A stretch of DNA of 64,000 nt from Escherichia coli (GTDB lineage: Bacteria; Pseudomonadota; Gammaproteobacteria; Enterobacterales; Enterobacteriaceae). A program made the position numbers and the translations under genes. The stretch lies in NCBI RefSeq assembly GCF_024700885.2, contig NZ_CP117016.1. One strand, given 5' to 3'. This document shows positions 36,819 to 39,893 of the stretch, in pieces. Position 1 is the first letter of the stretch. Each line of letters begins with the position of its first letter. The notes below the pieces were generated by a model that saw only the letters and a program-made list of their open reading frames with translations, was not told the DNA's origin and searched no databases.

Positions 36819-39800
36819 TTAACTTATTAGATCCGCTATTTTCTTTTCTTGATATGCCATCCTTATTATTTCAAATTCATCCATACGCATCATGTAAATA
36901 GATCTTGTCAATACCAAATTTCCATGTTTATCTTCTTTAATTTCATCTGCACCTTCTATTAATTTAATAATCCCAAATTCATTAACTGGAATTGGACAAG
37001 ACTCAATATCAATAGGATAAAAATCACCAGATTCGTTTTCTCTTACCAAAACACTGGTTTCTTCATACGTAATAAGACCATACTTCTTCCAATCAAGACC
37101 AGCTTTTGTAATTGCATCCTTAACTTGCTGCGCTACAACTCCAAAATGATATCTGGCATGTTCACTTCCTTTTCGTAATATTTCATCCTTCATCTTCCAC
37201 ATTTGAAATTTTACACTACCCACGGCTTCAATAAGTTCAGTCGGTATATCCGAGAATTCATCTTTGTAATTAACATCTGAAACAACAGTGACAGCATTCT
37301 TGCTATATATGTTATTCCAGTATGCTGTCGTTGTACCATTATTAACTGTTCCTATCTGCCCTGTGGGAGCAAAATAAGGATTATCATTAACTGGATTAGC
37401 TATCTCGACAAGAACTTGAGTACCGCCAAAGCTCCCGCCAGGGAACATACGAAACCTGTTTGGTAAGCGATAGTCATTAGAACCATAAGCATTCCAGCCA
37501 GCCCCATTTTCTACAGTACCACGACACCTAAATTCAACAACTTCTTGTATCTGCGGTGTTACATCATATCCACCACGTATAGACCAGTACTTATTATTGT
37601 CAGATTCTCTGCGGGAATCATGAACACGAAAAGCACCATTACTAGCATACTGAATGGCTTTTTTATATTCTGAAGTATTTTCTGAATACCCCCCCAATAT
37701 CCAGTTCTCTCCTAATTTAAAGGAAACATCAAAAGCAGAACTTATAGAAGAAAGTGGTGAGTTATTAACACGAGTTGTCAAGGCGGAATTCAATGGTAGT
37801 TCATTAGCAACCCCACGCGATTGTGAAATAAGAAATATCTGTTTTCCTCGTTTCGAATACACTCCATCGCTGTACTTTTTATCATTCGAGTATTCCCCAC
37901 CACTAACTTTATTTGTTATCGCCCACATTCTAAATCCATCGGGATCATCCGGAGCAATACCAGAAGCAGTAGAAAAAGCGGAATAATTCTTTCCTTTGTA
38001 AGTTATAATAGATGCTCCAGAATCCCAATTATCCATAGTTAGAATAATAAGGTCTCCTTCATACATATCTATACCTTCAGGTTCAAATGAATGGGGGGTC
38101 CCATACTTTGGATTATCCATAAGATTTTTGTATCCATAAAGAGAACGAGCCCCCTCAAATGAAAATTCAGCAAGAATATTACCAGAATAATCAAACTTCT
38201 GAATAATATGCAACATGAACGGATGTGTATATCCCCTTAATATATAGATGTACTTACCATCACTGGCAACATCTTGAATAACATGAGTATCAGTTCCGCG
38301 CTGCGGATGTGGAATCCTGAAATAATACAATGGTCTTGCGTCCAAACTATTGTCAAGGGATTCTACGTGTATCCTGCTGTAAACAAATACATACCAGGCA
38401 TCATCATCTGCTGTGCTATCAGTTGCAACAAGAACAACATACCTTCCATCTGAAGATACACACGGGGTTGCTGAATTATAATTCTGATAAGGATGACCAG
38501 AACCAGAATATCCAAAAAGCTGATAAGTAATCACATCAGATTCAGATGTGCTGCTCCCTTTCCAAATTAATTTTGAATAACCTTTTCCTCCATCATTTCC
38601 TCGATATGTAGGCTGGGTAACCATTTGGGTATAAATAAAAAGGTCATCATCAATAACTATCGTAGATATTCCCTGATGGTTATTTAATATTGGTGCAGTG
38701 TAAGTAGTATTTTGCACTACTGAACCATCATCAGAAAACGAGTATTCAACCAGCCTGCGCTTCTCTAAAGCAGCTGCTGTTCCTGTACCAACCCCTGGAC
38801 CATTCGCCGTAAATCGTACACCAATATTATTTTCAGCAGCCCCTATAGTTGTAAAATCAGTTGAACCTATACTTACTATTTCATATTCAATTCCGGTTAT
38901 GAAGTCACCAGCTGATGTTACTTTAGAGTTGAAGTTTCCACTACCTTCAGCACTGCCAACAACCGTTTGTAAAATAAATAATTTTTTACCATTATAATTC
39001 GCATAAGCACACCCTTGACTTGTAGCCTCACCATTTGGAAAAACTTGGGACTCACCAAAACCCATAAATGCTTCCATTAAATGGCGTTGCACCAATGTAT
39101 TACTGATATTATTACGAAGAGAAAGTAGATGACCAGTTTTGGAAAGAATCATCCCTTCCCCTGTCATTTTGCTTACATCTACTTTCAACGTATCAACAAG
39201 ATATACTCCAGGTGGAACATAAGCATTTTCAGGAGCCAGAATAAAAGAATTCGTATCATCAGTTATACCATCTCCAACAGCAGCATAATCTTTCACACTT
39301 ACTGTATCACGCATCTTATCCTGGAACGTTCTGTATACAGCTCCAGCACCATACTGGATAAACCATCCGAAACCACCGACAACACCAGCAATTGCAGCAT
39401 CCACATACTTACGCATTGAACGATTATTTACAGCGTCCTGCTCAAGTGATGGATCTGCAAGGTTAGAAATTTTGTTTTGCTTTGCATCGTAATATTTTGC
39501 AAGCAGCGAGGGCTTCATCAATGCACGTCTGAACCACCCAAAACATCGCTGGATCAGCATCGTCAGGTAGTCGAATGCATCCTCATGAACTTCGGGGAAA
39601 AATTTTCCCTGATTGCGAAGATCAGTCTCCTGCACCACATCAAGCACACGCTCTATCGTAATTCGCCAGCCAGCAGCAAGCGGCGACGGAAGAACCACTT
39701 CACCGCCACTATAAGTGCCCGCTCCAGTTACCTTATAACCGGTATCAAGCACCAATTCTGTTACGTTCCCGTTCAGATCAGACACCTGAACAACCAGGTC

Positions 39801-39893
39801 GGATTTTTTGAAAATACGGAAGGTATACGGAAATGATGTCGTAACTCCGTTACCGGTGTATTCGTTGTGGTCAACTTCGGTTGAGACCGTCAT
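36819..39893 (-). CDS. Tailspike/tail fibre: conserved N-terminal particle-binding domain + AT-rich receptor-binding/depolymerase body + C-terminal S74-type intramolecular chaperone
   Basis: 1024 aa. N-terminus MTVSTEVDHNEYTGNGVTTSFPYTF...DAKQNKISNLADPSLEQDAVN is typical of podovirus fibre anchors. VSVKDYAAVGDGITDDT is a pectate-lyase-like beta-helix start. The C-terminus has the SDVNYK (S-D-x3-K) autocleavage motif. RBS ggaga. Confidence 0.85.
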   Translation of the reverse strand: MTVSTEVDHNEYTGNGVTTSFPYTFRIFKKSDLVVQVSDLNGNVTELVLDTGYKVTGAGTYSGGEVVLPSPLAAGWRITIERVLDVVQETDLRNQGKFFPEVHEDAFDYLTMLIQRCFGWFRRALMKPSLLAKYYDAKQNKISNLADPSLEQDAVNNRSMRKYVDAAIAGVVGGFGWFIQYGAGAVYRTFQDKMRDTVSVKDYAAVGDGITDDTNSFILAPENAYVPPGVYLVDTLKVDVSKMTGEGMILSKTGHLLSLRNNISNTLVQRHLMEAFMGFGESQVFPNGEATSQGCAYANYNGKKLFILQTVVGSAEGSGNFNSKVTSAGDFITGIEYEIVSIGSTDFTTIGAAENNIGVRFTANGPGVGTGTAAALEKRRLVEYSFSDDGSVVQNTTYTAPILNNHQGISTIVIDDDLFIYTQMVTQPTYRGNDGGKGYSKLIWKGSSTSESDVITYQLFGYSGSGHPYQNYNSATPCVSSDGRYVVLVATDSTADDDAWYVFVYSRIHVESLDNSLDARPLYYFRIPHPQRGTDTHVIQDVASDGKYIYILRGYTHPFMLHIIQKFDYSGNILAEFSFEGARSLYGYKNLMDNPKYGTPHSFEPEGIDMYEGDLIILTMDNWDSGASIITYKGKNYSAFSTASGIAPDDPDGFRMWAITNKVSGGEYSNDKKYSDGVYSKRGKQIFLISQSRGVANELPLNSALTTRVNNSPLSSISSAFDVSFKLGENWILGGYSENTSEYKKAIQYASNGAFRVHDSRRESDNNKYWSIRGGYDVTPQIQEVVEFRCRGTVENGAGWNAYGSNDYRLPNRFRMFPGGSFGGTQVLVEIANPVNDNPYFAPTGQIGTVNNGTTTAYWNNIYSKNAVTVVSDVNYKDEFSDIPTELIEAVGSVKFQMWKMKDEILRKGSEHARYHFGVVAQQVKDAITKAGLDWKKYGLITYEETSVLVRENESGDFYPIDIESCPIPVNEFGIIKLIEGADEIKEDKHGNLVLTRSIYMMRMDEFEIIRMAYQEKKIADLIS

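What the first reader, a model, noticed from the sequence alone, without database searches (positions are those of the whole stretch)
36819..39893. Mosaic tailspike: conserved anchor, compositional break near 39.3-39.4 kb, and an S74-type self-cleaving chaperone with S-D-x3-K
Seen: the first ~160-190 codons (39893 down to about 39.35 kb) have normal GC content and a widely conserved fibre-anchor sequence. Downstream the gene becomes strongly AT-rich. The body begins with the pectate-lyase-like VSVKDYAAVGDGITDDT. The last 153 residues (36819-37280) start at VVSDVNYKDEF and match the intramolecular-chaperone pattern of endosialidase/T5-type fibres. In those fibres, Ser and Lys of S-D-x-x-x-K catalyse release of the C-terminal domain after trimer folding. 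Inference: a modular receptor-binding-protein exchange occurred at the anchor/body junction. The mature spike should lack about 17 kDa. The body is probably a glycan depolymerase whose specificity is paired with the neighbouring acetyltransferase.
Basis: partly seen in the sequence, partly recalled or inferred. Interest (0 to 1): 0.5.

Follow-up and report, generated by a model that had tools for sequence, protein, structure and literature searches.

The report
Modular prophage tailspike with propeller body

Summary
ORF 36819..39893(-) encodes 1024 aa. Composition drops from 47% GC in the anchor to 38% in the body and 33% in the C-terminal domain. The last 153 aa are a Peptidase_S74 intramolecular chaperone (Pfam E 9.6e-9; PDB sequence hits down to 2e-22). 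Its predicted fold significantly matches only known chaperones (3gw6, 3gud, 4uw8, 7dc3), and it carries S872 and K877.

The comparative breakpoint is sharp. The first 587 nt are identical to the spike of E. coli EC0026B. Similarity decays across codons 196-209 (window 39306-39267), inside the motif VS(V/P)KD(Y/F)xAVGDG, and is random afterwards. It resumes 33 nt before the stop codon.

Pairing with the neighbouring NeuO-like acetyltransferase is supported circumstantially: one shared low-GC island, 4 of 4 co-occurrence, a fossil spike end in the two exceptions, and the phiV10 precedent.

Verdict: a new member of a known kind, of moderate interest.

The parts
36819..39893 (-). Whole tailspike ORF: 1024 aa, 113.6 kDa, stop codon at 36819-36821.
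   Evidence: It is identical at every nucleotide to WP_077763239.1 in L001-L003.
39309..39893 (-). N-terminal virion anchor, aa 1-195, of the epsilon15/phiV10 (Uetakevirus) tailspike type.
   Evidence: It is 100% nucleotide-identical to the EC0026B spike over nt 1-587 and 90-95% to EC.W1-9, ZX5, phiv142-3 and HEMP4. It is 70-73% identical to phiV10 and epsilon15 over nt 1-435 and 1-346. It hits PDB Dpo31 28lx at E 1.4e-32.
39255..39308 (-). Junction or linker motif DTVSVKDYAAVGDGITDD, aa 196-213.
   Evidence: Against EC0026B the first mismatch is at gene nt 588, similarity is partial to nt 627 and random afterwards. The motif is shared by spikes whose bodies are an endosialidase (Pfam-confirmed), a Pfam pectate-lyase-type domain (EC.W1-9) or of unknown type. 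GC3 here is 0.06.
39093..39254 (-). Small N-terminal cap of the body, aa 214-267.
   Evidence: The AF2 model has beta strands here with pLDDT 60-80. It is conserved in the body family.
37794..39092 (-). Five-bladed beta-propeller, approximately aa 268-700. It is the presumed receptor-binding or catalytic module.
38769..38948 (-). Inserted promiscuous mini-domain, aa 316-375, with core YxIxxxG(S/T)TDFTxIGAxxNxVGxxFTAxG.
   Evidence: It is absent from P0017-P0021 and GA-1 gp12 and is duplicated at a second site in other homologues. It occurs at varied positions in unrelated phage proteins. It has no Pfam family.
37884..38018 (-). CBM5/12-like insert in the propeller, aa 626-670.
   Evidence: The family profile hits the chitinase A1 chitin-binding domain 1ed7 only weakly (E 0.11). 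PF02839 is precomputed on homologues P0007 and P0012. The insert is absent from GA-1 gp12.
37389..37754 (-). Beta-rich domain after the propeller, aa 714-835.
   Evidence: AF2 shows strands with pLDDT 70-83. Invariant R789 and near-invariant D759 lie here.
37281..37388 (-). Short stalk preceding the cleavage site, aa 836-871, expected to be a trimeric beta-helix. It contains Y858 at the position of endoNF Arg897.
   Evidence: pLDDT is low in the monomer models.
36822..37280 (-). Peptidase_S74 intramolecular chaperone domain, aa 872-1024, 17.7 kDa. S872 is at 37278-37280 and K877 at 37263-37265.
   Evidence: Pfam PF13884 E 9.6e-9. PDB hits are 6eu4 2.4e-22, 9vvr, 3gud 1e-11 and 3gw6. AF2 pLDDT is 73-96, and the only significant fold matches are 3gw6, 3gud (TM 0.78), 4uw8 and 7dc3.
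36775..36799 (.). Hairpin with a 10-bp stem between the convergent stop codons of the spike and the acetyltransferase. It resembles a bidirectional terminator.
35644..36768 (+). Convergent NeuO-like hexapeptide-repeat O-acetyltransferase with a 3' VNTR (GCACAGCA)x42 at 36419-36754. It is the probable receptor-modifying partner of the spike.
   Evidence: The closest solved structure is NeuO 3jqy, E 2.1e-18. The repeat is from TRF. Copy number varies. The slot is syntenic with phiV10 oac.
35437..39266 (.). Low-GC island (about 3.8 kb) of acetyltransferase plus spike body plus chaperone, set in a phiV10-like backbone of about 50% GC.
   Evidence: Homology to EC.W1-9 and to the SF-468 prophage ends at 39253-39255 and resumes at 35436-35438.

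Best explanation
The gene encodes the trimeric tailspike of a phiV10/epsilon15-like (Uetakevirus) prophage of E. coli.

Domain layout:
- Residues 1-195 are the lineage's conserved virion-attachment anchor.
- Residues 196-213 (VSVKDYAAVGDGITDD) are a linker motif that opens unrelated body types. It acted as the homologous crossover site.
- Everything downstream, to 33 nt before the stop codon, is a low-GC cassette that was exchanged as one block. It most likely arrived together with the adjacent NeuO-like acetyltransferase.
- The cassette encodes a five-bladed beta-propeller of the family that includes Bacillus phage GA-1 gp12, structurally closest to the S. aureus phi11/P68 receptor-binding platforms. 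The propeller carries two small inserted modules. It is followed by a beta domain, a short stalk and a Peptidase_S74 intramolecular chaperone.

Inferred mechanism:
- The C-terminal domains trimerise and nucleate folding of the stalk and body.
- S872, activated by K877, then cleaves the V871-S872 bond. This releases a 17.7 kDa fragment and leaves a 96 kDa mature spike.
- The propellers bind a host surface polysaccharide and probably cleave it. The site would be a funnel lined by the family-invariant residues Q293, R380, H406, K437, Q540, E604, E606 and K684.
- The prophage's acetyltransferase modifies that same glycan in lysogens to block superinfection, as Oac does in phiV10.

Shown here: the architecture, the homologies, the breakpoints and the predicted folds. 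Inferred: autoproteolysis, enzymatic activity, the identity of the receptor, and the functional pairing with the acetyltransferase.
For: Backbone and synteny:
- The backbone is 97% identical to phiV10 over about 24 kb.
- The order spike / convergent acetyltransferase / holins / GH19 endolysin matches phiV10.

Anchor and breakpoints:
- Anchor conservation is shown.
- Gene nt 1-587 show zero mismatches to EC0026B, and the sequences are random after nt 627.
- The 3' homology resumes at window 36851-36855.
- Other body types occupy the same slot on the same backbone: an endosialidase in SF-468, a Pfam pectate-lyase-type 'eliminase' in EC.W1-9, and a 923-aa spike in PAR and EC0026B.

Propeller body:
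- The AF2 core has pLDDT about 90.
- 18 residues are invariant across 15 diverse members, most of them just at or before predicted strand starts.

Chaperone domain: establish it. The dyad mechanism is described for T5 pb1 and endoNF in PMC4690869 and PMC8326128.

Pairing with the acetyltransferase:
- The two genes form the only low-GC island in the window.
- All 4 genomes with this spike carry the acetyltransferase.
- A degraded copy of this spike's last ~35 nt lies, non-coding, downstream of the different spike in PAR and EC0026B.
- The GenBank note on phiV10 oac reads 'acetylates the host O-antigen; functions in superinfection immunity'.
Against: - No member of the propeller family has a demonstrated enzymatic activity. 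The closest solved relatives (phi11 and P68 RBPs) are described as binding platforms (PMC4901313; PMC6795507).
- The Pfam Phage_RBD_prop hit is below threshold, and sequence similarity to the Staphylococcus RBPs is marginal.
- The stalk Arg that is key for cleavage in endoNF (Arg897, 14 residues before the Ser) is Tyr858 here. The P1 residue is Val rather than the usual Thr.
- This Arg is missing in 17 of 56 family sites and in the closest Klebsiella-phage C-terminal domains. MyRF cleaves without a stalk residue.
- The acetyltransferase also occurs with another spike.
- Metagenomic homologues of the body have no acetyltransferase neighbour.
- The models are monomers, so the trimer was not predicted.
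Confidence: 0.75

Rival explanations
1. The architecture is as described, but the propeller is a purely receptor-binding platform with no depolymerase activity, like the phi11 Gp45 and P68 tail-fibre platforms. The invariant polar residues would then be a conserved sugar- or anion-binding pocket, or structural residues.
Confidence: 0.35
2. This is the first reader's version: the body is a pectate-lyase-like right-handed beta-helix depolymerase that begins at VSVKDYAAVGDGITDDT.
For: There is a weak Pfam PF12708 hit at aa 198-235 (E 0.0011). The allele in EC.W1-9 has the same motif followed by a pectate-lyase Pfam hit above threshold.
Confidence: 0.03
3. The S74 domain acts as a folding chaperone but is not released, or only inefficiently, because the stalk Arg sensor is replaced by Tyr858 and the P1 residue is Val. 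The virion spike would then keep its C-terminal domain.
For: Y858 sits at position -14, and there is no Arg between -24 and -8. Arg897 is described as key in endoNF (PMC8326128). The P1 residue is Thr in 50 of 56 family sites but Val here.
Against: The Ser-Lys dyad and the KGxxARxHFG core are intact. The same Tyr(-14) and Val/Ile(-1) signature is conserved in the C-terminal domains of Klebsiella phages isolated on K. pneumoniae, at about 51% identity, which suggests a working subfamily. 30% of family sites lack the Arg. MyRF cleaves without stalk residues.
Confidence: 0.15

Closest known systems
Endosialidase tailspikes (K1F endoNF, and the allelic endosialidase of the SF-468 prophage and phage ZX5 at this same locus)
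   Same: They share the overall plan: N-terminal anchor, GDG linker motif, beta-propeller body, stalk and a Peptidase_S74 chaperone with a Ser-x4-Lys dyad. The SF-468 and ZX5 allele shares the anchor at 86% aa identity and the identical genomic slot.
   Different: Here the propeller is five-bladed and has no sequence or Pfam relation to the six-bladed End_beta_propel sialidase domain. There is no nested End_beta_barrel. The equivalent of Arg897 is Tyr858.
Bacillus phage GA-1 gp12 neck appendage protein (chaperone structure 3GUD)
   Same: The body is homologous (25% identity over 85% of it, E 4e-50; Foldseek 2e-42). The chaperone domain is homologous too (E 1e-11, TM 0.78).
   Different: It has a different N-terminal attachment region and a Gram-positive host. 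It lacks the 60-aa mini-domain and the CBM5/12-like insert. The function of its body is also uncharacterised.
Receptor-binding proteins of S. aureus phages phi11 (Gp45, 5EFV) and P68, with five-bladed propeller platforms
   Different: Identity is only 15%, and similarity is sub-threshold at the sequence level. Those proteins have no S74 chaperone and instead carry stem and tower domains. They bind GlcNAc-decorated wall teichoic acid and are not known to be enzymes.
phiV10 tail fibre plus Oac lysogenic-conversion cassette (Uetakevirus)
   Same: The backbone is 97% identical. The order spike / convergent acetyltransferase / lysis genes is identical. The anchor is related.
   Different: The spike body is different. 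phiV10 Oac (338 aa) is annotated only as an O-acetyltransferase that acetylates the host O-antigen, whereas the gene here is a NeuO-like left-handed beta-helix enzyme with a 3' VNTR. That phiV10 Oac is an integral-membrane acyltransferase and the NeuO-like enzyme soluble is the author's recollection, not tested here.
NeuO of prophage CUS-3 (E. coli K1)
   Same: NeuO is a prophage-borne enzyme and the closest solved relative of the neighbouring gene here (E 2e-18). Both carry a slippage-prone VNTR that encodes a variable peptide repeat. That CUS-3 places NeuO beside a propeller endosialidase spike with an S74 chaperone is the author's recollection and was not checked.
   Different: The NeuO VNTR is a 5' heptanucleotide that switches translation on and off. 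Here it is a 3' octanucleotide that never interrupts the catalytic core and yields the same octapeptide in all frames. The substrate here is unknown.

Membership tests
Peptidase_S74 / C-terminal intramolecular chaperone domain | Match to Pfam PF13884 above the gathering score | tested here: met
   35.9 bits against a cut-off of 22, E 9.6e-9, aa 872-933.
Peptidase_S74 / C-terminal intramolecular chaperone domain | Catalytic Ser-Lys dyad (S-x4-K) at the start of the domain, plus the conserved KG..AR.HFG.(I/V)AQ core | tested here: met
   S872 and K877 are present, followed by KGSEHARYHFGVVAQ. These columns are nearly invariant in A1 and invariant in A4. The dyad role is described in PMC4690869 and PMC8326128.
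Peptidase_S74 / C-terminal intramolecular chaperone domain | Fold of the solved chaperone domains, including a terminal helix for the trimeric coiled coil | tested here: met
   AF2 pLDDT is 73-96 for aa 872-1024, with a C-terminal helix at aa 1004-1023. The only Foldseek PDB hits with E <= 0.0014 are 3gw6, 3gud (TM 0.78), 4uw8 and 7dc3.
Peptidase_S74 / C-terminal intramolecular chaperone domain | Stalk Arg from a neighbouring chain, 14 residues before the Ser (endoNF Arg897, T5 Arg1250) | tested here: not met
   Tyr858 occupies position -14, and no Arg lies between -24 and -8. The feature is not universal: it is absent in 17 of 56 family sites and in the closest Klebsiella-phage domains, and it is not used by MyRF.
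Peptidase_S74 / C-terminal intramolecular chaperone domain | Actual autoproteolytic release after trimerisation | not testable with these tools
   This needs SDS-PAGE or mass spectrometry of wild type against S872A and K877A.
Epsilon15/phiV10-like (Uetakevirus) tailspike | Homologous N-terminal anchor and the conserved genomic position before the lysis cassette | tested here: met
   The anchor is 70-73% nucleotide-identical to phiV10 and epsilon15 and 90-100% to closer relatives. Synteny and 97% backbone identity are shown.
Pectate-lyase-like right-handed beta-helix depolymerase | Pfam Pect-lyase/Pectate_lyase_3 domain above threshold spanning the body | tested here: not met
   19.2 bits against a cut-off of 27, and only aa 198-235. 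The same motif precedes the endosialidase allele.
Pectate-lyase-like right-handed beta-helix depolymerase | Beta-helix fold of the body | tested here: not met
   All leading structural hits for the AF2 model are five-bladed propellers.
Five-bladed propeller phage receptor-binding platform (Pfam PF21311 Phage_RBD_prop; phi11 Gp45 type) | Pfam match above threshold | tested here: inconclusive
   18.5 bits against a cut-off of 23.7, aa 509-611. The family profile hits the 80alpha RBP 6v8i only at E 0.29.
Five-bladed propeller phage receptor-binding platform (Pfam PF21311 Phage_RBD_prop; phi11 Gp45 type) | Five-bladed propeller fold superimposable on 5EFV | tested here: met
Five-bladed propeller phage receptor-binding platform (Pfam PF21311 Phage_RBD_prop; phi11 Gp45 type) | Binds the host cell-surface glycan | not testable with these tools
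   This needs binding or adsorption assays.
Endosialidase (GH58) | End_beta_propel and End_beta_barrel domains | tested here: not met
   These domains are absent here but present in the allelic SF-468 spike. BLASTP finds no similarity between the bodies.
Five-bladed propeller glycoside hydrolases and phosphorylases (GH43/32/68/62/130) | Family sequence signature and catalytic acid residues | tested here: inconclusive

The most novel reading that the evidence does not exclude
The propeller may be the catalytic domain of an uncharacterised family of phage polysaccharide-degrading enzymes. The family has about 160 clusters at 50% identity among 1.84 billion proteins. Its active site would be the invariant ring Q293/R380/H406/K437/Q540/E604/E606/K684. 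That ring is conserved from Bacillus phage GA-1 gp12 to E. coli prophages, so the enzymes may act on a chemical feature common to teichoic-acid-like or acidic polymers. On this reading the spike and its VNTR-bearing NeuO-like acetyltransferase form a self-contained module that destroys the receptor and masks it. This would parallel the endosialidase and NeuO of CUS-3 using unrelated catalytic parts.
Probability: 0.3. Interest if true: 0.55.

Novelty: new member of a known kind. Interest (0 to 1): 0.35.

Why it matters
Tailspike bodies decide which strains a phage can infect. This locus is a clean natural example of body exchange. A 587-nt stretch of perfect identity ends within a 40-nt conserved linker motif. 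The same slot in one prophage lineage holds an endosialidase, a pectate-lyase-type 'eliminase', or this propeller.

The correction also matters for annotation. The GDGxTDD(T/S) motif is not diagnostic of a beta-helix depolymerase.

The body belongs to a small propeller family that has not been studied biochemically. It links Gram-positive phage receptor-binding proteins with enterobacterial podovirus spikes. If it proves enzymatic, it would define a new depolymerase class useful for phage engineering and glycan typing.

The adjacent acetyltransferase with a hypervariable 3' repeat suggests a second NeuO-like system for tuning surface-glycan acetylation.

Tried and rejected
- **Endosialidase-type body.** Rejected: no End_* Pfam domains and no BLASTP similarity to the allelic endosialidase.
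- **NCBIfam scan of the spike.** No family matched.
- **Family profile against PDB sequences.** It gave only marginal hits (1ed7 at E 0.11, 6v8i at E 0.29), so sequence alone does not link the body to solved RBPs.
- **Literature search for a characterised five-bladed propeller tailspike of a Gram-negative phage.** None was found.
- **Strict one-to-one pairing of spike and acetyltransferase.** Rejected because PAR and EC0026B combine the same acetyltransferase with a different spike. The fossil 3' end then showed that those are secondary replacements.
- **Missing Arg(-14) as disqualifying for S74 cleavage.** Rejected as a disqualifier after counting 17 of 56 family sites without it and finding the same signature in Klebsiella phages.
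- **Promoter scan.** Uninformative: 19 sites found against 15.8 expected.
- **Host O:K serotype.** Not determined, because there was no practical way to locate the O-antigen or capsule loci with the available tools.

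
Full report
**1. Observation**

The ORF 36819..39893 on the minus strand is real and encodes 1024 aa. Its DNA is identical at every base to the gene for WP_077763239.1 in E. coli MLI114 (Mali), E100341 (Gambia) and AST205 (Japan).

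VSVKDYAAVGDGITDDT starts at aa 198. VVSDVNYKDEF starts at aa 870. S872 is at 37278-37280 and K877 at 37263-37265.

Composition changes as described.
- GC is 0.47 in the anchor, 0.383 in the body and 0.327 in the last 153 codons (chi-square p = 1.7e-5).
- All 2.4-kb windows with GC <= 0.40 in the 64 kb lie in this island.
- GC3 falls from 0.50 (codons 1-125) to 0.36 (126-197), 0.06 (198-213) and 0.25 (the rest). The decline across codons 126-197 is shared by all alleles of the anchor.

**2. Genomic setting**

The surrounding 24 kb is 97% identical to phage phiV10 and to phiv142-3, HEMP4 and PAS61, all epsilon15-like Uetakevirus. The prophage lies beside yfgI.

Gene order is spike, then a convergent acetyltransferase, then two holin-like genes, a GH19 endolysin and a DUF2514 protein. 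In phiV10 this slot holds the tail fibre followed by a convergent oac gene. The GenBank note on oac reads 'acetylates the host O-antigen; functions in superinfection immunity'. PAS61 has an 'O-antigen acetylase' there.

**3. Anchor and breakpoint**

The anchor shows nested conservation.

| Comparison | Gene nt | Nucleotide identity |
|---|---|---|
| epsilon15-like spikes | 1-346 | about 72% |
| phiV10 | 1-435 | 70% |
| EC.W1-9, ZX5, phiv142-3, HEMP4 | about 1-587 | 90-95% |

Against the spike of E. coli EC0026B, gene nt 1-587 show no mismatch. Nt 588-627 (codons 196-209, window 39306-39267) show 10 mismatches. Beyond nt 627 the sequences are unrelated.

Homology resumes at window 36851-36855, within the last 11-12 codons of the ORF. 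It continues through the intergenic hairpin into the acetyltransferase. The exchanged block is therefore about window 36852-39266, which is the body plus the chaperone domain.

On the same backbone and in the same slot, other genomes carry different bodies.

| Genome or phage | Spike in this slot |
|---|---|
| SF-468 and other K1 strains, phage ZX5 | 1039-aa endosialidase |
| EC.W1-9 | 624-aa 'eliminase' with a Pfam pectate-lyase domain |
| PAR, EC0026B | 923-aa spike with S74 |
| HEMP4 | 729-aa spike |

All but HEMP4 begin their bodies with (V/P)(K/R)DFGA(V/K)GDG. In the endosialidase allele, Pfam End_N_terminal starts exactly there, and a weak pectate-lyase hit is also produced. So the motif is a shared linker and crossover site. 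It is not a marker of a beta-helix.

**4. The body**

Pfam gives only a sub-threshold 38-residue pectate-lyase hit and a sub-threshold Phage_RBD_prop hit.

A search of 5.8 billion proteins found about 20 homologues of the body, at 29-46% identity. All but one (P0020) carry S74, and their N-termini vary. An exhaustive phmmer search of 1.84 billion representatives found 159 clusters, 101 of them at E <= 1e-30.

AF2 with this alignment gave an all-beta model. Mean pLDDT is 75.6, and it is about 90 for aa 369-699. The structural and sequence matches are:
- This is the same neighbourhood that was published for the phi11 platform (PMC4901313).
- Foldseek against viral models ranks Bacillus phage GA-1 gp12 first (2e-42).
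- tblastn confirms sequence homology to GA-1 gp12 (25%, 4e-50). It also matches the spikes of E. coli phages 683R2 and Gally (31%), PGN829.1 (27%) and Pollock gp75 (24%).

Across 15 diverse members, 18 residues are invariant: Q293 G294 R380 H406 K437 W444 G446 T449 S480 G483 Q540 G571 Y586 E604 E606 G607 K684 R789.
- Q293, R380, H406, K437, Q540, E604/E606 and K684 fall just at or before predicted strand starts.
- In five-bladed propellers, residues lining the central funnel usually sit at such positions.

Two inserts decorate the propeller.
- A 60-aa mini-domain spans aa 316-375. Its core recurs at 46-66% identity, at varied positions, in unrelated phage proteins.
- A CBM5/12-like segment spans aa 626-670.

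No member of this family has a reported activity. 'Depolymerase' is therefore an inference. It rests on the biology of podovirus spikes and on the conservation pattern.

**5. The C-terminal domain**

The evidence that this is an S74 chaperone is:
- Pfam PF13884 is above threshold.
- phmmer hits 6eu4 (2.4e-22), 9vvr, the GA-1 chaperone 3gud (1e-11) and the endoNF chaperone 3gw6.
- AF2 models aa 872-1024 with pLDDT 73-96 and a terminal helix.
- The only significant PDB fold matches are 3gw6, 3gud (TM 0.78), T5 pb1 4uw8 and MyRF 7dc3.
- S872 and K877 align with the dyad (endoNF S911/K916, T5 S1264/K1269).

Removal of aa 872-1024 leaves a 96.0 kDa chain and frees 17.7 kDa.

Two differences from endoNF stand out.
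- The stalk Arg 14 residues upstream (endoNF Arg897, T5 Arg1250) is Tyr858 here.
- The P1 residue is Val rather than Thr.

The same signature ((F/A)Y(P/W)(N/A)NIYS(Q/K)NAVTV(V/I)SDV) is conserved in the closest C-terminal domains. These belong to Klebsiella phage tail proteins at about 51% identity. The chaperones of the body's own relatives are only about 32% identical. Thirty percent of family sites lack the Arg, and MyRF cleaves without a stalk residue. I therefore keep self-cleavage as the likely outcome, at about 0.8. The chaperone also looks like a separately shuffled module.

**6. Pairing with the acetyltransferase**

The neighbour at 35644..36768(+) is a hexapeptide-repeat enzyme. Its closest solved relative is NeuO, the prophage-encoded polysialic acid O-acetyltransferase (3jqy, E 2.1e-18).

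Evidence for co-inheritance with the spike:
- The acetyltransferase core (GC 0.365) and the spike body form a single low-GC island. Homology to phages that lack both genes flanks it at about 35437 and 39254.
- All four complete genomes with this spike carry the acetyltransferase.
- Two strains, PAR and EC0026B, pair it with the 923-aa spike. About 20 nt downstream of that spike's stop codon they retain a degraded, non-coding copy of the last ~35 nt of the present spike ORF. This indicates that the present spike was the earlier partner and was later replaced.

Against a family-wide link, metagenomic homologues of the body sit in podovirus contigs (with P22_gp7) that have no acetyltransferase neighbour.

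Functional pairing, meaning receptor masking in lysogens, is inferred from the phiV10 precedent.

**7. Verdict**

The mosaic and S74 parts of the interpretation are supported. The pectate-lyase reading of the body is not.

The object is a new member of a well-known kind, the modular tailspike with an intramolecular chaperone. Its body belongs to a small, biochemically unstudied propeller family. Interest is moderate. The most interesting side observation is the hypervariable octanucleotide repeat in the NeuO-like neighbour.

Noticed in passing
window 36419-36754 (TRF: 36419-36760), inside the acetyltransferase gene 35644..36768(+): There is a perfect octanucleotide tandem repeat (GCACAGCA)x42 at the 3' end of a NeuO-like O-acetyltransferase gene. 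Copy number is 43, 52, 16, 22 and about 0 in five other strains, although the flanks are at least 99.5% identical and the adjacent spike gene is 100% identical in the three of these strains that carry this spike (43, 52 and 16 copies). Because 3 x 8 = 24 nt, every frame encodes the same octapeptide (AAQQHSST)n, so slippage changes tail length (0 to about 140 aa) and the last few residues but never truncates the catalytic core. This contrasts with the 5' heptanucleotide on/off VNTR of NeuO.
   Followed up: partly
window 38769-38948 (spike aa 316-375): A promiscuous mini-domain of about 47-60 aa, with core YxIxxxG(S/T)TDFTxIGAxxNxVGxxFTAxG, is inserted in blade 1 of the propeller. The same core occurs at 46-66% identity at N-terminal, internal or C-terminal positions of many unrelated phage structural proteins, and twice in some homologues. 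No Pfam family matches it.
   Followed up: partly
L009 7260-7295 and L008 5269-5304 (E. coli EC0026B and PAR): A non-coding fossil of the last ~35 nt of the window-type spike ORF (ATA-CAAGAAAAGAAAATAGCAGATCTAATATATTAA) lies about 20 nt downstream of the stop codon of their different 923-aa spike. This gives the direction of the replacement.
   Followed up: yes
window 36775-36799: A hairpin with a 10-bp stem (TAATGGCCG...CGGCCATTA) sits in the 50-nt gap between the convergent stop codons. It resembles a bidirectional terminator.
   Followed up: no
window 37320-37322 (Y858) and 37281-37283 (V871): The chaperone subfamily here has Tyr at the position of the endoNF 'folding-sensor' Arg and Val/Ile at P1. 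It shares this with Klebsiella phage tail proteins (Croc_ER14, VLCpiP4a, Eowyn). This suggests a variant cleavage-site geometry within S74.
   Followed up: partly
L010 4558-5094 (Escherichia phage vB_EcoP-683R2): In a P22-like phage, a tailspike with a homologous propeller body (31% identity) is followed by a convergent 'lysophospholipase L1-like esterase' gene. This is another possible glycan-modifying partner at the equivalent position.
   Followed up: no
L003 1519-2001 (E. coli AST205): In AST205 the spike gene lies directly after a truncated replication protein P gene. The prophage is therefore rearranged or decayed there, although the spike is intact.
   Followed up: no
window 39966-40346(+): This divergent upstream ORF (126 aa from the first listed ATG) matches phrog_450. 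Relatives annotate it as an 85-aa hypothetical protein (WP_001188252.1). It is conserved next to all spike alleles.
   Followed up: no
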